Shown here: in pieces, positions 1-54,068 of the stretch
Layout of the letters: each line of letters starts with the position of its first letter
Position numbering within the stretch: the stretch's first letter is position 1
Sequence record: MK903282.1
DNA: 64,000 nucleotides
Origin: Escherichia phage Mansfield
Strand: one strand, 5' to 3'
Program-made: the position numbers and the translations under genes
Notes under the pieces: generated by a model
The model's database searches: none
Told to the model about the DNA's origin: nothing
Seen by the model: only the letters and a program-made list of their open reading frames with translations

Positions 1-70
1 ATTTTAAAATCATTTAAATTAATTTTTTTTCATATCCTCATACTTATACTAAACTTATATTTATACGTAC

Positions 71-132
71 TATCCGTAAGATATAAGTAAAAACAAAGAC
101 TTGCGGCAATACGGATGATACGTCATGATACG
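71..132. repeat. additional copies of the CGTATCATC iteron
   Basis: TATCCGTA at 71-78; inverted TACGGATGATACGTCATGATACG at 110-132. Confidence 0.6.
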
Positions 133-297
133 CTTCGACCAGCCAACAGCGGCTAAGTCATTGATTTGCATAACAAGCGGCGAAAGGGATGGATTTCTTT
201 TATACGTATCAAACAGTACACCACGCACCACGGTACGCTATTCATTCAGCACTATGATTTGTGTACGTTTACAGCCAATTTGAACATCAATCTGCAC

Positions 298-326
298 TTG
301 AATATAATGTTCATTCATTGTATAAT
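298..326 (+). promoter_or_regulatory. sigma70-like promoter TTGAAT-N17-TATAAT
   Basis: TTGAAT at 298-303, 17-nt spacer, TATAAT at 321-326; sits inside the long ORF 166..834, so the true start is downstream. Confidence 0.45.
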
Positions 327-360
327 TCACACTATTAATTTGCACTATGGGATTTGCACT

Positions 361-834
361 ATGAGTCAAGATTATGTAGCAATGCCTGAAGACTTTGAAG
401 ACCCGCGATTTGCAGAGCATAATCAGGCATTATTCGATGAGTTCATTGACCTTGTTATTCAGGGCCATGACATGCGCGCAGCTTTTGCACTAGTATTTGG
501 CATGGAGGTTGCGACCGATAACTACACTGGCCAGCGAATCCTCTGCACGCAACGCAATCCGTACTACAAGATGCGCTACAAAAAGCGTATGGAAGAGATG
601 CCATTGAAGGAATTGTGGAGCGTAAAGAGTTCCATCCACAATTTAGTGAAGCTTGTGCGTGATCCAGAAGTCGCGGCGTCAGCCAAGCTTAATGCCATTC
701 GTGAACTGAATATCATCTACGGCATCACGATGATTGATGAGAATGGCAATAGTAAAATGGGCCGTTCCATGGACGATTTCTACAAGGATTTTGGAGAGGC
801 AGCCAAAGAGGGTGAGCAATTCTCCCGCCACTAG
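361..834 (+). CDS. hypothetical early protein (157 aa)
   Basis: ORF 166..834 trimmed to ATG 361 because the predicted promoter lies inside the longer frame; ATG is embedded in 11-mer copy 2; no catalytic motif recognised. Confidence 0.5.
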   Translation: MSQDYVAMPEDFEDPRFAEHNQALFDEFIDLVIQGHDMRAAFALVFGMEVATDNYTGQRILCTQRNPYYKMRYKKRMEEMPLKELWSVKSSIHNLVKLVRDPEVAASAKLNAIRELNIIYGITMIDENGNSKMGRSMDDFYKDFGEAAKEGEQFSRH

Positions 835-853
835 CCAATTTGCACTATAAAAC

Positions 854-887
854 GGCCCTAGAACACATTTTCTCCACTTCTAGGGCC
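854..887 (+). other. stem-loop (8-bp perfect stem GGCCCTAG/CTAGGGCC, 18-nt loop)
   Basis: Inverted repeat immediately after the 361..834 stop and 11-mer copy 3; no U-tract, so not a canonical terminator. Confidence 0.35.
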
Positions 888-948
888 ATCGGTAATACGA
901 CGGGGAAGGTTACAACCGTAAACGCGTTAGAAGGTGTATTATTATAAG

Positions 949-1212
949 TCATCTTTTAGTCACTTTACGTAACAATTTACGACCTTCCGCCGTCCAGTCG
1001 AACGACTCCACCAGCAGATTTGCACTATAACCTAAGACGATGCGCCCTTTCTCGTTATCGACCCGCCAACAAGTCTCGAATAGCATTCGATTTGCACTGT
1101 TAACTATCGCCGCAACGCGCGCTGGGTAAGCGCAATTTGCACTATGGTCGTAAAGGGATAAGGTGCGACCACTTCCGATGGATAACGTAGCGATGAGAAT
1201 AAGCGTATTCAT
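949..1212 (-). CDS. hypothetical protein (87 aa), doubtful
   Basis: ORF with GGTGG 3 nt upstream; carries three antisense 11-mer copies; CpG-rich. Confidence 0.3.
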   Translation of the reverse strand: MNTLILIATLSIGSGRTLSLYDHSANCAYPARVAAIVNSANRMLFETCWRVDNEKGRIVLGYSANLLVESFDWTAEGRKLLRKVTKR

Positions 1213-1263
1213 AAGCCACCAATTTGCACTATGAAAAGCGACCCCCGAAGGGCCGCCATTCGA

Positions 1264-1890
1264 TTAGATAATCTGGAATGTGTAGGACTTGTTGCCGAAC
1301 TCGAAGTTCAAGCGCCCAGCTTCCTTAAGCTTCATACGGAAGCGAATGTGCTTGCTATCCGGTAATCCCAGCGCGGCGAACGCTACGCGGACCGATTTAA
1401 ACTCGCCTACACCTTCGACCATAACGCCGTTACGGGTGAGACGCTTTTGCGCTACTTCCTTGTTATCCCAACTTTTTGCAATACCTTCGCTATTCGAACG
1501 GCGATGAGAAGGAGTTCCATTTTGCACTACGCAATTTGCACTATCGTTTAGGCCGCTTTTAACGAAGGCTTCATACTCTTCGTCGGTCATCGCGTCGAGT
1601 TCTTCCTGAGTCGGCTCGGCCTTTTTAACGACCGCACGCGCCTTATGCGTTTTTACATCGCTGGACACTTCCTCGCGCGACTTCGCGTCGGGAATGGGCG
1701 ATTCGTTGGACGGCGCATCGAGCGCGTTTAAGGACTCGATCAACGCGATTACGCGAGTCTCGGCGGTCCGGCGGTCCGCGAATTTCTTAATCGGCTTCGA
1801 ACCGGAATTTGCATTATAAAATGCAACGAGGTCGGCGGTCTTAGTTGCGATAACGTCGCCGCTAGTAGAGAAGCGATTTAAGCTAACCAT
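1264..1890 (-). CDS. hypothetical protein (208 aa)
   Basis: SD context TAGGAGTTTATT-ATG as in the paralog cassettes; no own promoter seen, likely co-transcribed with 1971..2255. Confidence 0.55.
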   Translation of the reverse strand: MVSLNRFSTSGDVIATKTADLVAFYNANSGSKPIKKFADRRTAETRVIALIESLNALDAPSNESPIPDAKSREEVSSDVKTHKARAVVKKAEPTQEELDAMTDEEYEAFVKSGLNDSANCVVQNGTPSHRRSNSEGIAKSWDNKEVAQKRLTRNGVMVEGVGEFKSVRVAFAALGLPDSKHIRFRMKLKEAGRLNFEFGNKSYTFQII

Positions 1891-1970
1891 AATAAACTCC
1901 TATTTGTTAGGGCGCTAGGCGCGAAAGAATTTTATTAAAGCGCCGCGCACGACGCTCTAAAAATCCTCTC

Positions 1971-2255
1971 TTACGCTTCGACGAGGGAGAAGGTCTCAAA
2001 TTCTTCTTCGCCCATAACGAGTAAAATATTACCGATTTCGACCGCTTCGAAGAAGTATCCGTTAACGTTTACTTCGAAGGCTTCGCGGTCCGATTCCGGT
2101 AACGCCGCGTAAAGTTTAAAAGCCTCGGCGACCGTTACCCCACCCGCTTCGATAGTTTGGTCTACGTTCGCGGCGTAGACTTCGGATAAATTTTGTTTTA
2201 CGCCGTAGTTCTCGACGATAGCGTTACGGATAGAAGAAACGTTAAGAATAGCCAT
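1971..2255 (-). CDS. acidic small protein, paralog family member (94 aa)
   Basis: TAGGAG SD 6 nt upstream; shares blocks (NVDxTIE, xNGyfyexxEIG) with 2889..3179; net charge about -13. Confidence 0.6.
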   Translation of the reverse strand: MAILNVSSIRNAIVENYGVKQNLSEVYAANVDQTIEAGGVTVAEAFKLYAALPESDREAFEVNVNGYFFEAVEIGNILLVMGEEEFETFSLVEA

Positions 2256-2323
2256 TTTAAACTCCTAGTTGGGAGAGGCGTTAACGACCTATTCGTTAAC
2301 TCATCCCGTCCCGATATGAGTAC

Positions 2324-2351
2324 ATTATAATATAGTGTAGAAAAAAGTAAA
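2324..2351 (-). promoter_or_regulatory. sigma70-like promoter (minus strand) TTTACT-N16-TATAAT
   Basis: Reverse complement of 2346-2351 is TTTACT and of 2324-2329 is TATAAT; downstream 5'UTR aligns with that of the 2889 cassette. Confidence 0.55.
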
Positions 2352-2395
2352 GCACTTTTTCGATAAAAATGCGATAAATTATTTTATCTTTTTTC

Positions 2396-2423
2396 TTTAC
2401 TTCTTCGTACACTCGCGTATACT
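2396..2423 (+). promoter_or_regulatory. sigma70-like promoter TTTACT-N16-TATACT
   Basis: Shares CTTTACTTCTTCGTACACT and TATATCGAGAGG blocks with the promoter at 2793. Confidence 0.55.
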
Positions 2424-2477
2424 TATTTATATCGAGAGGCGATGGGCCTCTTCTCTTCTACCATCGGGAGTTTTATT

Positions 2478-2780
2478 ATGGCTACTTTAATTTCTTCTAT
2501 CCTTACTTACGACGAAGACCGTTTAACCGTTCGCTCTCTTATCGCCGCCGTTAACGCGGAACTAGAATCTAGCGCCATTAAGGTCCGCGCCGTCGCCTTC
2601 ATCGGCCTTTCCTTCGACGATATTAAATACGCCGAACGTAGCGCCATCCGCTTCGCGAAGACCGACGACGAAGCCGTTACCCTTATCGAGACGGTTACGC
2701 CGCGCGGCGAAGCGTTAATTATCGTCGAGTATATCGACGTAGAAGGCGATAAGGCGTATAAATATTTTATCGCAAAATAA
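2478..2780 (+). CDS. acidic small protein, paralog family member (100 aa)
   Basis: ORF 2442..2780 trimmed to ATG 2478 (GGGAG SD 8 nt upstream); weaker similarity to the other two paralogs. Confidence 0.55.
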   Translation: MATLISSILTYDEDRLTVRSLIAAVNAELESSAIKVRAVAFIGLSFDDIKYAERSAIRFAKTDDEAVTLIETVTPRGEALIIVEYIDVEGDKAYKYFIAK

Positions 2781-2792
2781 CGAAAAAAGTGC

Positions 2793-2821
2793 TTTACTTC
2801 TTCGTACACTAAGACTATAAT
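2793..2821 (+). promoter_or_regulatory. sigma70-like promoter TTTACT-N17-TATAAT
   Basis: TTTACT 2793-2798, TATAAT 2816-2821; conserved 5'UTR then TAGGAG SD. Confidence 0.6.
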
Positions 2822-2888
2822 GTTTTATATCGAGAGGGGATGAGGTAGCGAATAGGTCGCTACCCTTCCGACTAACTAGGAGAATATT

Positions 2889-3179
2889 ATGATTACTTTA
2901 TCCGCTATCCGTTCCGCTCGCGTCGAAACTTCCGAAAACTCTAACGTATTTGGCGAAACGTTAGAGAGCGTTTATCTCTCTAACGTAGACGCGACTATCG
3001 AGTCTATTTATGAACCGATCAACTTCCTCGACCTTTACAAGTATCGCGACGAGGACGTAGTATCCTACCGCGTAACGATTAACGGCTTCGTCTATACGAT
3101 TACCGAAATCGGCGGCGAATATATCGCTGTACCGCAACTCGGCGGAGAGGTGACTTATTTTAAAATCGTCTCCTTATAA
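2889..3179 (+). CDS. acidic small protein, paralog family member (96 aa)
   Basis: TAGGAG SD; paralogous to 1971..2255; net acidic. Confidence 0.6.
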   Translation: MITLSAIRSARVETSENSNVFGETLESVYLSNVDATIESIYEPINFLDLYKYRDEDVVSYRVTINGFVYTITEIGGEYIAVPQLGGEVTYFKIVSL

Positions 3180-3199
3180 TACCCTTCCGTTACTAATAG

Positions 3200-3224
3200 G
3201 CCGCGCTTAGTCGCGGCTTTTCTT
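3200..3224 (+). terminator. rho-independent terminator
   Basis: GCCGCG / CGCGGC 6-bp stem, 6-nt loop, followed by TTTTCTT; 20 nt after the 2889..3179 stop. Confidence 0.6.
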
Positions 3225-3344
3225 CGTCCCTATCCCGATGCGCGTCCTACGCGAAAACTCCTTTATCCTTCCCTTCGTCGTCGCATAATCTTCTTCGAGA
3301 TGCGCCTTAGTTCGCATAAGAGGTATTACGTTAAATGGAGAACA

Positions 3345-3418
3345 TCGCGTAAGTCCTTGTTTTATATAGACACCTATATCGGACCGTTAGGGAGGGTCGC
3401 GTAAGTCGTTGTTTTATA
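3345..3418. repeat. 22-bp direct repeat x2 (TCGCGTAAGTC[C/G]TTGTTTTATA)
   Basis: Copies at 3345-3366 and 3397-3418, one mismatch, in non-coding DNA. Confidence 0.7.
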
Positions 3419-3543
3419 AAGGCGCAAAACTTTCCCTTCGTTCCGAACTAAAACGAGAAATATGCCGACCCTTCGACGAAAAATAGTACGCATGCGAAAT
3501 TACCGACATCTAGAATAATCCCCACCGATATTATCCTACACGC

Positions 3544-3597
3544 AATCATTAGCTTTCGAATCATTATGCTTCATATCATTATGCGTCGAATCATTCG
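3544..3597. repeat. four phased copies of ATCATT (period 14-16 nt)
   Basis: ATCATT at 3545, 3561, 3575, 3590, each flanked by similar G/AAATCATTATG context. Confidence 0.5.
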
Positions 3598-3695
3598 CTT
3601 TCAAATTGTAACGCTGGAAACTGTAACGGCGATTGATTATTGCGTTCGTGTGGTTTTTAGGGCATGGGTCTTTTGGTGCGTTTTGGTACTTGATG

Positions 3696-3808
3696 AAATT
3701 TGCAGTACACTAATCAAAATACGACACATTCGGTCCACTAACTTTTCAAAGAAAAAGTCCCAGACAGTACCGTACTATTTTGTGCCCACAGTAAATTTGC
3801 AGTACACT
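3696..3808. repeat. 16-bp direct repeat x2 (AAATTTGCAGTACACT)
   Basis: Copies at 3696-3711 and 3793-3808; shares the ATTTGCA core with the 11-mer array. Confidence 0.7.
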
Positions 3809-3842
3809 CCTGCGCGGCAGGCAAAATAAAGGGCCGCAGCAG

Positions 3843-3884
3843 CGACCCACGACCCACGACCCACGACCCACGACCCACGACCCA
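3843..3884. repeat. tandem heptamer (CGACCCA) x6
   Basis: Six perfect head-to-tail copies; followed by a 12-bp direct repeat CCCACTATTCAC at 3881 and 3909. Confidence 0.85.
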
Positions 3885-3913
3885 CTATTCACGGTTAAAG
3901 CACCATCCACCCA

Positions 3914-4309
3914 CTATTCACTCTTATGGGCATCACCAAAGCCATCCGCAATCTGGCTGATCAGCGATTCAATGGACACAGTTTTACCAATTGATCGAGC
4001 GGTAATAGCAAGCATATTATCAATCAAACCGCGATTGACTGCATATGTTTCAGGTTTTGATTCATCTCCAGGACAACCAAAAAGCTGGTCGCGCAAACTT
4101 TCGAGGGAACGCTCAATATTTTCCAGCTTCTCTTCTAAATCGGATTGGCGACGTAAAACCCATGTTAAGTCGCGGTTGCCGACTTCCAATCCATTATAAT
4201 CGCAAGATGGAACGTCAATTTTGATGCTGCCACCAAAGGCCATTCCGCTGCCTTTAGTATATGCGTGGTGAATAGAATCATTTTTATTTGACATATCATT
4301 ACCTTTCAT
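3914..4309 (-). CDS. hypothetical protein (131 aa)
   Basis: ORF; no motif recognised. Confidence 0.5.
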   Translation of the reverse strand: MKGNDMSNKNDSIHHAYTKGSGMAFGGSIKIDVPSCDYNGLEVGNRDLTWVLRRQSDLEEKLENIERSLESLRDQLFGCPGDESKPETYAVNRGLIDNMLAITARSIGKTVSIESLISQIADGFGDAHKSE

Positions 4310-4367
4310 GAGGGTGATTAACTTAAATTATAATAAAGCCGCATAGCGCGGCATTCAAATCGGTTTG

Positions 4368-4616
4368 TTAATTGTAACGATTGGATTCATCAATCGATAC
4401 CAACTGTGCTGGGTCGCCGGATACGGTCGAGCCAACGATACCCATCTGCTGAAAGAACTCTGAATAAACTTCCTTCCAGTATTTACGCGCTGCTTTCTGA
4501 GCCTGTCCTTTGCGCTTGAAGCTTTTACCTTGAAAGATGAAACGGTCGCTTGCCGCTCGATACTCCACCACACCTTCCAGCCATTGTAAGAATGCTACTG
4601 ATTCATTCTGATTCAT
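4368..4616 (-). CDS. hypothetical protein (82 aa)
   Basis: ORF; overlapping alternative frame 4355..4573 judged less likely. Confidence 0.4.
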   Translation of the reverse strand: MNQNESVAFLQWLEGVVEYRAASDRFIFQGKSFKRKGQAQKAARKYWKEVYSEFFQQMGIVGSTVSGDPAQLVSIDESNRYN

Positions 4617-9450: not shown

Positions 9451-9483
9451 ATGAATAAAATATTAACACATAATTGGAAAGTC

Positions 9484-10911
9484 ATGTACCAGTTGAATCC
9501 TGCTTTAAGAGAAGTTTGGAAGACGAAAGCGCGATACAAAGTAATATACGGCGGTCGTGCATCTTCCAAATCGCATGATGCCGCTGGTTTTGCTATTTAT
9601 TTGGCGGCAAACTTTAAATTAAAATTCCTTTGCGTTCGACAATTCCAGAACAAGATTTCTGAATCAGTATATACGCTATTAAAAGATAAGATAGAGATTT
9701 CTGATTTTAAAGACGAGTTCAACTTATTAAAGAACTCTATTGAACACAAAAGAACAAAATCTGAATTCTTATTTTACGGTATCGCACGCAACGTTGACGA
9801 AATCAAATCAACAGAAGGCGTTGATGTTCTTTGGCTTGAAGAAGCGCATGCACTGACTGAAGAACAATGGGACATTATTGAGCCGACCATTCGTAAGGAA
9901 GGGTCAGAAATATGGATCATATTTAACCCTGATGAAGAGGCCGATTTCGTCTACCAGAACTTTGTCATGCGACCGCCGAAGAATGCCATCGTTAAGAAGA
10001 TCAACTGGCAAGACAACCCATTTTTGTCACAAACAATGCTGGATGTTATTGCTGGCATGTATGAGCGCGACCCGAAAAAGGCAGAACACGTTTATGGCGG
10101 AGTACCGAAGACAGGCGGCGACAAGTCGGTCATCAACCGTGCATTCGTCAAGGCCGCGCTAAACCTCCACAAACACCCTACGCTGGGATGGAGCTTGTCA
10201 GGGTCTAACCGTATAGGCTTTGACGTGGCGGACGACGGCGACGACTTAAACGCCACAGCATTTGTCACGGGCAACGTATTGCGCGGCATCAAGACATGGG
10301 AAGGTCTGGAAGATGAATTGCTTAAGTCCGCAAGCGGAGTTTGGAAAGACGCATTGACATTCGGCGCATCAATTACCTATGACGCAATCGGTGTTGGTGC
10401 ATTTGCTGGTTCAAAATTTGATGAGCTTAATGAGTATGCAATCCATGAAAATCCAACATTCCCAAGAATCGAATTTAATGCGTTCAACGCGCAAGGTGCT
10501 GTTGATGATCCTGATGATGTTTTCCTTGAGTTACCACACGTTGAAATACTCAATAAAGACCATTTCGCAAACATAAAAGCGCAAAAATGGACTGAGATTG
10601 CCGAACGATTCAGGAAGACATATGAATATGCGACAGGGCAAGCCGTATATCCGACCGATGAGTTGATTTCCATCGACACAGACGGCATTCCAGAACTTGG
10701 GATTCCTGCTTGGTCTGCGGAAGAGATTGAGACGTTTCTTTTTGAGATGTCAGCGCCGCGCAAAGATACGTCTGTACTTGGCAAGTTCAAAGTTGAATCG
10801 AAAAAAGATATGGCAAAGCGTGGAGTCAAATCGCCTAACAAAGCGGACGCCGCAATCATGGCATTGATGAAACCAATTGTTGCAGCATCCGGCTTCTTCT
10901 CTAACCTTTAA
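9484..10911 (+). CDS. terL: terminase large subunit
   Basis: N-terminal ATPase with Walker A-like GGRASSKS and Walker B-like VLWLEE; C-terminal nuclease-like half; start moved from 9451 to 9484. Confidence 0.9.
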   Translation: MYQLNPALREVWKTKARYKVIYGGRASSKSHDAAGFAIYLAANFKLKFLCVRQFQNKISESVYTLLKDKIEISDFKDEFNLLKNSIEHKRTKSEFLFYGIARNVDEIKSTEGVDVLWLEEAHALTEEQWDIIEPTIRKEGSEIWIIFNPDEEADFVYQNFVMRPPKNAIVKKINWQDNPFLSQTMLDVIAGMYERDPKKAEHVYGGVPKTGGDKSVINRAFVKAALNLHKHPTLGWSLSGSNRIGFDVADDGDDLNATAFVTGNVLRGIKTWEGLEDELLKSASGVWKDALTFGASITYDAIGVGAFAGSKFDELNEYAIHENPTFPRIEFNAFNAQGAVDDPDDVFLELPHVEILNKDHFANIKAQKWTEIAERFRKTYEYATGQAVYPTDELISIDTDGIPELGIPAWSAEEIETFLFEMSAPRKDTSVLGKFKVESKKDMAKRGVKSPNKADAAIMALMKPIVAASGFFSNL

Positions 10912-16077: not shown

Positions 16078-16341
16078 ACGTATCATCCGTATCAAGTAAG
16101 TATTTGTTTTCAAAAGAATCTTACGTATGATACGGATGATACGCGTTGCCGCGATACTTTATAGGAATTCAAATAAATTAATTTAAAATTATATATCTAA
16201 TTTAATTTTATTTTTTTATAAACTCTTATATATGAAAAGTATCCGTATCATCCGTATCATCCGTAGCACACCAGTGATAGCGCGGCTTATACACCGATAC
16301 GGATAAAAATACGCCTCATTTTATCCGTATCATCCGTATCA
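16078..16341. repeat. iteron cluster (9-mer unit CGTATCATC) in AT-rich region
   Basis: Forward copies 16078-16094, 16241-16265 (three tandem units), 16322-16341; inverted copies 16128-16143 and 16295-16304; flanked by a >90% A+T tract at 16175-16240. Confidence 0.75.
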
Positions 16342-53222: not shown

Positions 53223-54068
53223 TTATTCCGCTTGATCACCGTCTTCGGCATCTTCGTTGGATTCAACATCGACAAACTCGATGTGACCCATCTCTTCCAG
53301 CTTGCTCAGGTAGGAGCGAACTGAAGCGCCAAACAGTTGATCTTTAACTTTTTCGCCCAGCTCATCGATAGACTGTGCCACGCCAACTTCGCCTTCTTTG
53401 ATCGCCGCCAGAACGCGTCCACGGGTGGAATGCTCTTGCGGCTGACTCAGGCCATTGCCAGTGTAGATGAAGTGAGTAGCTTTTGCACGACGCTGACCAT
53501 TGGCCTTTTTGGCAGCCTTACGTTCTGCGATGGCTTTGCGACGTTCTTCAGCTTCTTGCTTACGCTGTTCTTTCTGCTGTTCTGCAGCTTCTTTCGCCGC
53601 AATCTTAGCAGCTTCACGCTCTGCCTTGCGTTTCGCTTTGGCTTCTTCTTTGGCCTTCTCTTTTTCGGCCTTCGCTGCAGCACGGGCTTGATCACGCTCT
53701 GCTTTCTTAGCAGCAGCTTGTTCAGCTTTCAGGCGCTTGGCTTCTTCTTTAGCCTTTGCCTTTTCGATTTCTTTCGCTGCTTTAGCGGCTTCACGCTCTG
53801 CTTTCTTAGCAGCAGCCTTTTCTGCACGCTCTTTGGCCTTCTTGGCTGCTTCTTCAGCACGCTTCTGAGCCTTCTCATCAGCAGCCTGCTTGCGTTTCAG
53901 GGCAGCTTCTTCACGCTTGGCTTGTTTTTCCTGCTCACGCTTCTGGCGTTTTTCTTCGGCTTCTTTCTTTTTAGCCAGACGTTTTTCTTCAGCCACGCGA
54001 CGACGTTCTGCTGCAGCTGCTTGTTTTTCTTCTTTAGATAATACTTTGATTGCTTCGGCCATGTTCAC
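53223..54068 (-). CDS. Lys/Ala/Glu-rich low-complexity protein with globular acidic C-terminus
   Basis: About 200 aa of KAE-type charged helix repeats then ~80 aa non-repetitive acidic tail; the antisense ORF 53337..54041 is a composition artefact. Confidence 0.6.
   Translation of the reverse strand: MNMAEAIKVLSKEEKQAAAAERRRVAEEKRLAKKKEAEEKRQKREQEKQAKREEAALKRKQAADEKAQKRAEEAAKKAKERAEKAAAKKAEREAAKAAKEIEKAKAKEEAKRLKAEQAAAKKAERDQARAAAKAEKEKAKEEAKAKRKAEREAAKIAAKEAAEQQKEQRKQEAEERRKAIAERKAAKKANGQRRAKATHFIYTGNGLSQPQEHSTRGRVLAAIKEGEVGVAQSIDELGEKVKDQLFGASVRSYLSKLEEMGHIEFVDVESNEDAEDGDQAE

What the first reader, a model, noticed from the sequence alone, without database searches (positions are those of the whole stretch)
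3226..3913. About 700 bp of non-coding, repeat-dense DNA after the island
Between the terminator at 3200-3224 and the next minus-strand gene there is no convincing ORF (3566..3829 has poor composition) but several independent repeat families: a 22-bp direct repeat x2 (3345, 3397), four phased ATCATT copies (3544-3597), a 16-bp direct repeat x2 (3696, 3793), six perfect tandem CGACCCA heptamers (3843-3884) and a 12-bp direct repeat (3881, 3909). Such stacking suggests an origin of replication, a packaging/terminus region or a structured non-coding RNA locus.
Basis: seen in the sequence. Interest (0 to 1): 0.6.

Follow-up and report, generated by a model that had tools for sequence, protein, structure and literature searches.

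The report
Repeat-rich spacer at phage terminal-repeat boundary
This 690-bp gene-free, repeat-rich stretch is the conserved spacer that contains the inner edge of the phage's 3.7-kb terminal repeat, i.e. the sequence at which the right end of the packaged chromosome is made; the boundary was already published, so the finding is real but largely ordinary.

Summary
All five repeat families are at the stated coordinates, and the stretch is the second most repeat-dense in the window. The window is E. coli myophage Mansfield (genus Wifcevirus): both published genome-closing primers match it exactly. That paper reports a 3,673-bp direct terminal repeat (DTR) from PhageTerm. Three relatives deposited with both repeat copies end their DTR at the homologous base, window 3673|3674, inside the finding.

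The region is a non-coding spacer between two convergent terminators. Its ORF is broken in most relatives. It has no Rfam match and no excess folding. Its diversity is 0.04, against 0.12-0.21 at flanking third codon positions, so it is under selection. The GT-rich block around the DTR end is among the best-conserved parts.

The elements differ in standing:
- The CGACCCA x6 array is private to this phage (1-2 copies in 23 relatives), which points to slippage next to a terminator stem.
- The 15-bp array varies in copy number.
- The 16-bp repeats share a core with an oriented motif, ATTTGCASTA, found almost only in the DTR.

Best reading: a cis-acting terminus-generation region, closest in architecture to T5 "Repeat Region 3". 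The roles of the individual repeats are inferred, not shown. Interest is low to moderate.

The parts
1..3673 (.). Direct terminal repeat (DTR), one copy. The window starts at the physical left end of the genome.
   Evidence: Window base 1 equals the DTR start of WFH, WFC, SP13 and Ro157lw. The Mansfield paper reports a genome opened at the boundary of a 3,673-bp DTR predicted by PhageTerm. Both Mansfield closing primers match the window exactly.
3198..3224 (+). Intrinsic terminator ending the + strand gene 2889..3179.
   Evidence: Annotated as a terminator in WFH and WFC.
3345..3421 (+). Two copies of a 25-nt direct repeat (3345-3369 and 3397-3421), 52 bp apart start to start.
   Evidence: Present in all 19 aligned relatives with few substitutions. 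Pairwise diversity is 0.027.
3544..3648 (+). 15-bp-period array of about 7 units: AATCATT-type x4, AAyTGTAAC x2 and one degenerate unit.
   Evidence: the register was read. Bas100 lacks exactly 45 bp, which is 3 units. The start of the array is the least conserved part of the spacer.
3631..3695 (.). GT-rich, nearly invariant block that contains the DTR right end. The cut position is between 3673 and 3674: ...GGGCATGGGTCTTT | TGGTGCG...
   Evidence: 61 of 65 columns are invariant in 20 sequences, with diversity 0.016-0.026. GC skew is +0.415 at 3600-3699.
3696..3808 (+). Two exact 16-mers AAATTTGCAGTACACT (3696-3711 and 3793-3808), 23 and 120 bp outside the DTR. Their core ATTTGCAGTA belongs to the oriented ATTTGCASTA family.
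   Evidence: Conserved with 1-2 substitutions in relatives.
3831..3855 (-). Intrinsic terminator of the minus-strand gene 3914..4309 (GGGTCGC-TGCT-GCGGCCC followed by a T-run).
   Evidence: centroid hairpin. Annotated in WFH and WFC.
3843..3884 (.). CGACCCA x6 tandem array. It is a strain-private expansion of a unit that forms the 5' arm of the minus-strand terminator stem.
   Evidence: There is 1 copy in 20 relatives and 2 copies in SP13, F13 and Bas99. The published Sanger closing amplicon 3722-4118 spans it.
3880..3921 (+). 13-nt repeat ACCCACTATTCAC x2. The second copy overlaps the stop codon of gene 3914..4309.
   Evidence: family D2. The first copy reads CCCACGATTCAC in all 19 aligned relatives.
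338..1816 (+). Eleven + strand copies of ATTTGCAcTAtg-type motifs inside the DTR. They lie outside the finding but share the core of its 16-bp repeats.
   Evidence: The ATTTGCA sites lie at near-identical positions in four relatives.

Best explanation
The stretch is the non-coding spacer at the inner (right-hand) boundary of the 3,673-bp direct terminal repeat of a Wifcevirus myophage (phage Mansfield). Two convergent transcription units end in it, at terminators 3198-3224 (+) and 3855..3831 (-), so it needs neither promoters nor genes.

Its conserved core, especially the GT-rich block 3631-3695, carries the sequence at which the right end of the virion chromosome is generated from replicated DNA, after base 3673.

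Inferred mechanism: during packaging, the terminase (large subunit 9451..10911) recognises this block. Recognition probably uses flanking repeated elements as protein-binding sites: the 15-bp array and 25-nt repeats on the DTR side, and the two ATTTGCAGTACACT 16-mers on the unique side. The terminase cuts or nicks at 3673|3674. The repeat is then duplicated so that every virion carries it at both ends, as in other fixed-end DTR phages (T7, T5).

The CGACCCA x6 array is not part of this machinery. It is a recent replication-slippage expansion in the 3' untranslated tail of the neighbouring gene, next to its terminator hairpin.

Shown: the position of the end, the absence of coding, and purifying selection. 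Inferred: which repeats bind what, and the cutting and duplication chemistry.
For: **Identity and boundary**
- The published Mansfield closing primers match the window at 3722-3741 and 4098-4118.
- The paper states a 3,673-bp DTR from PhageTerm, with the genome opened at its boundary.
- WFH, SP13 and Ro157lw, deposited with both DTR copies (0 mismatches between copies), end their DTRs at the base homologous to window 3673. Ro157lw's ends come from an independent PhageTerm run.

**Non-coding**
- The ORF is broken in relatives. It has no PHROG hit. Most annotators leave the gap empty.

**Selection**
- Diversity is 0.043 over 3226-3842 and 0.029 over 3600-3830. Flanking third codon positions show 0.12-0.21.
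- The block holding the cut site has 61 of 65 invariant columns.

**Convergent terminators:**

**Heptamer array private to this phage:**

**Architectural precedent:** T5 Repeat Region 3 is untranslated and repeat-dense. It lies mostly in the terminal repeat but overruns 270 bp into unique DNA, and is better conserved than nearby ORFs.
Against: - No experiment or read data were available here. The boundary rests on published PhageTerm calls and deposited records.
- WFC's deposited DTR ends 81 bp further, at window 3754|3755.
- No terminase small subunit or any DNA-binding protein has been linked to any of the repeats.
- The left and right DTR boundaries share no clear motif; shared 9-mers are at chance level.
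- The 15-bp array is the least conserved part and tolerates loss of 3 units.
- The mechanism that generates long DTRs is unknown in general (statement quoted).
Confidence: 0.6

Rival explanations
1. The region is an origin of replication. The 25-nt repeats and the 15-bp array act as iterons for a phage initiator next to mildly AT-rich DNA. The DTR boundary is there only by coincidence.
For: There are direct repeats with a 52-bp spacing, about 5 helical turns. A 7-unit array is present. GC is 38-41% at 3450-3750 against about 46% overall. The region is gene-free and conserved.
Against: There is no DnaA box within 1-4400. No strongly AT-rich unwinding element was seen. The site is far from the replication gene block at 38-55 kb. 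No cumulative GC-skew turning point was seen here at 2-kb resolution. The best-conserved parts are the 3402-3461 window and the DTR-end block, whereas the start of the 15-bp array is the least conserved part. An origin inside a terminal repeat would be duplicated.
Confidence: 0.12
2. The region belongs to a DTR-wide directional DNA signal. The ATTTGCASTA family has 13 same-strand copies from 338 to 3795, and the last two are the finding's 16-mers. The family would mark site-specific single-strand nicks (as in T5, phiKMV-like phages and tf), or binding sites that control stepwise entry of the first-injected DNA (like the T5 injection stop signal). The spacer would then be the end of that system rather than a terminase site.
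For: All 9 exact copies, and 13 of 17 copies with at most 1 mismatch, are on the + strand within 338-3795. They occur regardless of gene strand, including antisense inside two genes, with no longer peptide repeat. The ATTTGCA sites lie at near-identical positions in four relatives. Strand-specific short motifs are the signature of localized nicks in tf, T5 and phiKMV-like phages. The T5 iss lies in the untranslated inner end of its terminal repeat.
Against: No nick or injection data exist for any Wifcevirus. The 16-mers differ from the main family at position 8 and after position 10. The paired DnaA boxes that define the T5 iss region are absent. There is a motif-free gap from 1816 to 3697.
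Confidence: 0.12
3. The region is a neutral leftover spacer. Decayed duplications and slippage products accumulated between two convergent terminators and have no function of their own.
For: The heptamer array is a private expansion. The 15-bp array changes copy number, with Bas100 at -45 bp. The 13-nt repeat looks like an old local duplication (family D2).
Against: Diversity is 3- to 5-fold lower than at flanking third codon positions and is similar to second codon positions. The region is kept in all 28 Wifcevirus records. The DTR end maps into one of its most conserved blocks.
Confidence: 0.08
4. The region encodes one or more structured small RNAs.
For: It is a conserved non-coding stretch between terminators.
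Against: No Rfam family has E below 0.28, and all hits are far under their gathering scores. No segment folds better than shuffled controls. No promoter-like site points into the region on the + strand, and only two weak 9/12 matches lie on the - strand. There is too little variation to test covariation.
Confidence: 0.04

Closest known systems
Bacteriophage T5 'Repeat Region 3' (injection-stop-signal region) at the inner end of the long terminal repeat
   Same: Both are untranslated, repeat-dense stretches that lie mostly inside a long DTR and overrun into unique DNA: 270 bp in T5, 240 bp here. Both hold several independent direct-repeat families, including a multi-copy short tandem array. Both are better conserved than neighbouring ORFs.
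   Different: There is no sequence similarity; the region has no DNA homologue outside the genus. The paired DnaA boxes characteristic of T5 are absent. No large inverted-repeat partner lies elsewhere in the DTR. The region is 0.69 kb in a 3.7-kb DTR of a myovirus, against 1.2 kb in a 10-kb DTR of a siphovirus. Two-step injection is not known for Wifcevirus.
T7/T3 concatemer-junction signals (terminal repeat flanked by arrays of short repeats; pac/cleavage sites)
   Same: Both have fixed, non-permuted ends with a DTR, and short repeat arrays next to the repeat boundary. Site-specific cutting plus duplication of the repeat is the accepted general model. This comparison rests on my own knowledge (Dunn & Studier 1983; Fujisawa & Morita 1997) and was not checked here.
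   Different: The DTR is 3.7 kb against 160-230 bp. The terminase is a Terminase_3 family enzyme. The T7 requirements (promoter or origin, hairpin) were not found here, and there is no significant hairpin.
Lambda cosB-type terminase small-subunit binding sites (16-bp R elements plus an IHF site beside the cut site)
   Same: Short (16-bp) direct repeats sit on one side of a fixed cut site, within about 120 bp.
   Different: There are only two copies. There is no IHF consensus in the region. The ends are a long DTR, not cohesive ends. No small subunit has been identified.
Published genome description of phage Mansfield and relatives (Wifcevirus, 3.5-3.9 kb DTR)
   Same: It is the same phage and the same boundary: 3,673 bp. 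Ro157lw has 3,533 bp from PhageTerm. WFC and WFH have about 3.7 kb.
   Different: The papers read here do not describe the spacer, its repeat families, its conservation or the oriented DTR motif.

Membership tests
Boundary region of a fixed-end long direct terminal repeat (T5/T7-style DTR genome) | The same sequence is present at both ends of the virion DNA. | tested here: met
   Relatives deposited as full-length virion genomes carry two 100%-identical copies (WFH 3701, SP13 3899, Ro157lw 3533, WFC 3784 bp). For this phage the claim is published. The second copy lies beyond the 64-kb window, so it was not seen directly.
Boundary region of a fixed-end long direct terminal repeat (T5/T7-style DTR genome) | The repeat boundary falls inside the feature. 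| tested here: met
   The boundary is at 3673|3674 in three relatives and in the published DTR length. WFC's is at 3754|3755, which is also inside the finding.
Boundary region of a fixed-end long direct terminal repeat (T5/T7-style DTR genome) | Ends are unique (not permuted), shown by read-start peaks or restriction mapping. | not testable with these tools
   This rests only on PhageTerm statements in the literature.
T5 Repeat Region 3 / injection stop signal | An untranslated, repeat-dense region at the inner end of the terminal repeat that overruns into unique DNA and is more conserved than nearby ORFs. | tested here: met
   compared with the description.
T5 Repeat Region 3 / injection stop signal | Paired DnaA boxes (TTWTNCACA and near variants). 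| tested here: not met
   There are no exact boxes in 1-4400, and none with at most 1 mismatch inside 3226-3913.
T5 Repeat Region 3 / injection stop signal | A large inverted-repeat partner elsewhere in the terminal repeat (IRC/IRD type). | tested here: not met
   No inverted repeat of at least 14 nt links 3226-3913 to the rest of 1-4400.
T5 Repeat Region 3 / injection stop signal | Two-step DNA transfer that pauses at the site. | not testable with these tools
   This needs infection experiments.
Iteron-type replication origin | At least 3 phased iterons, an AT-rich unwinding element, and host or phage initiator boxes. | tested here: inconclusive
   Repeats are present, but there is no DnaA box. 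The AT enrichment is only mild. No initiator is known.
Structured non-coding RNA (any Rfam family) | A covariance-model match at or near the gathering score, or folding energy beyond shuffles. | tested here: not met
   The best Rfam hit is E 0.28 at 19.5 bits against a gathering score of 111. Folding z-scores run from -0.41 to +1.29.
Protein-coding gene (ORF 3566..3829) | The reading frame is kept in relatives and there is family membership. | tested here: not met
   There is an in-frame stop in 14 of 19 relatives, the frame is disrupted in SP13, and the start is deleted in Bas100. There is no PHROG hit.
Slippage microsatellite (heptamer array) | Perfect tandem units with copy-number differences among close relatives and no conserved copy number. 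| tested here: met
   There are 6 perfect copies here, 1 copy in 20 relatives and 2 copies in 3 relatives.
Lambda-type cosB | Multiple small-subunit binding repeats plus an IHF site beside the cut. | tested here: not met
   Only two 16-mers are present, and there is no WATCAANNNNTTR site in the region.

The most novel reading that the evidence does not exclude
The finding's two 16-mers are the outermost members of an oriented motif family, ATTTGCASTA. The family has 13 same-strand copies, and all of them lie in the terminal repeat or within 120 bp of its inner edge. Some sit antisense inside genes. The family could mark a directional DNA-level process specific to the first-entering or terminally duplicated DNA. 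Candidates are site-specific single-strand nicks, or a T5-like staged genome entry whose stop or boundary signal is this spacer. This would be in a myovirus genus reported to complete infection in 3-5 minutes.
Probability: 0.12. Interest if true: 0.65.

Novelty: new member of a known kind. Interest (0 to 1): 0.3.

Why it matters
How long direct terminal repeats are cut and duplicated is still unknown for any phage (noted). Wifcevirus is a small genus (28 records matched here) that can be rebuilt from synthetic DNA. An in vitro assembly system exists for vB_Eco4M-7 (abstract listed).

Its Pseudomonas relatives, the Pbunavirus phages, are estimated to have circularly permuted, terminally redundant genomes. 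The 690-bp spacer, which has no DNA match outside the genus, is therefore a compact candidate for the cis-signals that accompany a switch to fixed ends.

For genome engineering and phage therapy, knowing that 3631-3695 and its flanks are constrained tells designers what not to touch. The six-heptamer array can be ignored, or used as a strain marker.

Tried and rejected
1. **Structured RNA.** The Rfam scan at permissive E-values gave only three sub-threshold hits on the + strand terminator. Folding of seven sub-segments was no better than shuffles. Rejected.
2. **Coding.** ORF 3566..3829 and the small minus-strand ORFs were rejected because of frame breaks in relatives and the 7-bp copy-number change.
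3. **DnaA boxes and IHF sites.** Looked for as in the T5 iss and lambda cosB. None in the region.
4. **More distant homologues.** Sensitive blastn found only the 28 Wifcevirus records. IMG/VR gave 4 loci and the metagenome scan gave 4 loci, all close relatives. Deep comparative analysis was therefore not possible.
5. **A shared cut-site motif at the two DTR boundaries.** Shared 9-10-mers were at chance level. The only recurring one, TGGGTCGTG (inverted copies outside the left boundary in WFC and SP13), is absent in WFH.
6. **Sigma-70 promoters inside the spacer.** There are none on the + strand and only weak 9/12 matches on the - strand. The ATTTGCAcTAt motif does not fit a -35/-10 layout relative to the predicted promoters.
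7. **GC-skew or composition switch as an origin signal.** Nothing specific was seen at 2-kb resolution.
8. **The heptamer array as an assembly artefact.** Unlikely, because the published Sanger closing amplicon spans it.

Full report
**What the window is**

The window matches 28 Wifcevirus phage records at 86-96% identity. These include E. coli and Shigella myophages WFH, WFC, ECML-117, FEC19 and Ro157lw. No record is identical.

Both genome-closing PCR primers published for E. coli myophage Mansfield match the window exactly, at 3722-3741 (+) and 4098-4118 (-). The forward primer includes a CATTCGG variant that none of the 19 aligned relatives has. The window is therefore Mansfield (MK903282) or a near-identical isolate.

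[quoted passage not shown] The window's first bases equal the DTR start of the relatives.

**Checking the observation**

- A 25-nt direct repeat at 3345 and 3397, 92% identical, with 0.01 chance matches expected.
- ATCATT at 3545, 3560, 3575 and 3590 in a 15-bp period. In register the array continues as AAyTGTAAC units to about 3648.
- An exact 16-mer at 3696 and 3793.
- Six perfect CGACCCA units at 3843-3884.
- A 12/13-nt repeat at 3880-3892 and 3909-3921.

The 688-bp stretch has 171 positions in repeated 10-mers, against a window-wide mean of 17.9. It sits in the top 1%, behind only a coding tandem repeat at 53.6 kb.

It lies between a + strand terminator (3198-3219) and a - strand terminator (3855..3831) that end two convergent genes. 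Both terminators are annotated in WFH and WFC.

**Non-coding status**

ORF 3566..3829 has an in-frame TAG in 14 of 19 relatives. It is disrupted in SP13 and has lost its start in Bas100. It has no PHROG match.

The small minus-strand ORFs run through the heptamer array, whose copy number differs by non-multiples of three. Most annotators leave the gap empty.

There is no Rfam match better than E 0.28. None of seven sub-segments folds better than its shuffles.

**The key fact: the DTR boundary is inside the finding**

In WFH, SP13 and Ro157lw the two deposited DTR copies are identical. They end at ...GGGCATGGGTCTTT | TGGTGCG, the base homologous to window 3673|3674. This is exactly the 3,673 bp published for Mansfield. 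Ro157lw's ends come from an independent PhageTerm analysis.

WFC's record ends 81 bp further, at window 3754|3755. That may be imprecise mapping or a real variant.

So 448 bp of the finding lie inside the DTR and 240 bp lie outside it.

**Conservation**

A 20-sequence alignment gives these mean pairwise diversities:

| Region | Diversity |
|---|---|
| Non-coding 3226-3842 | 0.043 |
| 3600-3830 | 0.029 |
| Third codon positions, five flanking genes | 0.12-0.21 |
| Second codon positions, same genes | 0.03-0.09 |

The GT-rich block 3631-3695 that holds the DTR end has 61 of 65 invariant columns. This rules out a neutral spacer.

The region has no DNA homologue outside the genus. IMG/VR and metagenome scans added only close relatives.

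**The elements are not equal**
- **Heptamer array.** It is private to this phage. Twenty relatives have one CGACCCA and three have two. The unit is the 5' arm of the minus-strand terminator stem. This fits slippage in a 3' untranslated tail. The published Sanger amplicon spans it, so it is probably not an assembly artefact.
- **15-bp array.** It is the least conserved part, and Bas100 lacks exactly three units. The third ATCATT is ATTATT in nearly all relatives.
- **25-nt repeats and 16-mers.** Both are retained in all aligned relatives with few substitutions.
- **13-nt repeat.** The second copy overlaps the stop codon, and the first copy is imperfect in all 19 aligned relatives.

**An unexpected link**

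The 16-mers' core, ATTTGCAGTA, belongs to a family, ATTTGCASTA. It has nine exact copies, all on the + strand, at 338-1534 and at 3698 and 3795.

With at most one mismatch, 13 + strand copies lie within 338-3795. Only 2 (+) and 2 (-) lie in the other 60 kb.

Copies lie before, after, between and antisense within genes. There is no extended peptide repeat. The ATTTGCA sites lie at near-identical positions in four relatives. Some copies extend to a 23-nt consensus.

The motif does not fit a sigma-70 promoter layout. Same-strand short motifs are the hallmark of localized nicks in tf, T5 and phiKMV-like phages, but nothing is known for Wifcevirus.

**Mechanism**

Shown:
- The right genome end maps to 3673.
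- The region is non-coding.
- It is under purifying selection, and the block containing the end is one of its strongest points.

Inferred:
- The terminase (large subunit 9451..10911, Terminase_3 family) recognises the conserved block and flanking repeats in replicated DNA and cuts at 3673|3674.
- The repeat is then duplicated, as generally assumed for fixed-end DTR phages. The mechanism for long DTRs is unknown.

Searches for a motif shared by the two DTR boundaries, for DnaA boxes and for IHF sites were all negative.

**Comparison with known systems**

The closest architectural analogue is T5 Repeat Region 3. It is an untranslated 1.2-kb, repeat-dense region, mostly in the LTR, that overruns 270 bp into unique DNA and is better conserved than nearby ORFs. 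Membership fails on two points: there are no paired DnaA boxes and no inverted-repeat partner.

The T7 concatemer-junction repeat arrays and lambda cosB are looser analogues. Both comparisons rest on my own knowledge.

The Pseudomonas relatives (Pbunavirus) are estimated to have circularly permuted, terminally redundant genomes. Fixed ends, and this spacer, are therefore features of the genus.

**Verdict**

The 'packaging/terminus region' reading is right, but the boundary itself was already published for this phage. The ncRNA reading is unsupported, and the origin reading is untested and unfavoured.

What is new is descriptive:
- The spacer is strongly constrained.
- Its flashiest repeat is a private microsatellite.
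- Its 16-mers tie into an oriented motif family found almost only in the DTR.

Interest is 0.3. Novelty is 'new member of a known kind'.

Noticed in passing
window 338-1816 (+ strand), plus 3698 and 3795: Oriented motif ATTTGCASTA (longer form CCACyAGCnrATTTGCACTATAA). There are 9 exact and 13 near-exact copies, all on the + strand, confined to the terminal repeat and its inner flank. Some lie antisense inside genes 949..1212 and 1264..1890. The ATTTGCA sites lie at near-identical positions in four relatives. Function is unknown; nick sites, a protein-binding array or an entry signal are candidates.
   Followed up: partly
window 108-125 and 16122-16341; L002, L004, L006 and L008, about 45-65 bp (also about -112 in L006 and L008) outside the DTR left end: The 9-mer GATACGGAT / ATCCGTATC recurs. 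It is tandem at 16.1-16.3 kb in the window (TRF rows), present near the window start, and present just outside the left DTR boundary in relatives. It may be a regulator-binding site.
   Followed up: no
window 1008-1015 (-), 12866 (+), 44428 (+), 56303 (-), 57670 (-): There are five Chi sites (GCTGGTGG) against 1.19 expected; 2 of 100 shuffles reach 5. The one in the DTR is fused to an ATTTGCACTA copy. By my reading, it is oriented to be active for RecBCD entering from the left genome end.
   Followed up: partly
window 2395-2444 and 2792-2842: A promoter-plus-leader module is duplicated: CTTTACTTCTTCGTACACT...TATAaT...TTTATATCGAGAGGnGATG. It sits in front of the two + strand DTR genes 2442..2780 and 2889..3179. 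A divergent TTTACT-16-TATAAT promoter at 2351..2324 faces the minus-strand genes.
   Followed up: no
between window 3163 and 3164 (insertion in relatives): SP13, F13, Ro157lw, ECML-117, FEC19 and Eco4M-7 carry an extra 210-bp ORF here, just upstream of the + strand terminator. Some records annotate it as a 'transcriptional regulator'. Mansfield and 13 other relatives lack it, which explains the different DTR lengths (3533-3899 bp).
   Followed up: partly
L003/L004 (WFC), homologous to window 3754|3755: WFC's deposited DTR ends 81 bp further right than in WFH, SP13, Ro157lw and Mansfield, between the two 16-mers. This is either imprecise end mapping or a real alternative cut site.
   Followed up: no
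L020 (Bas100), homologous to window 3544-3588: A clean 45-bp deletion equals three units of the 15-bp array. The phage is viable, so copy number in this array is not critical.
   Followed up: yes
L002, L004, L006 and L008, from about 230 to 500 bp upstream of the DTR left end: The left DTR boundary also sits in a roughly 650-bp gene-free stretch. It has a GT-rich tract outside the repeat and is much less conserved between WFH and the others than the right-boundary spacer. It lies beyond the 64-kb window.
   Followed up: partly
window 53638-53816: A 99-bp tandem repeat (1.8 copies, 79% match) lies inside a minus-strand ORF (53223..54068). It is the only place in the window more repeat-dense than the finding.
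   Followed up: no
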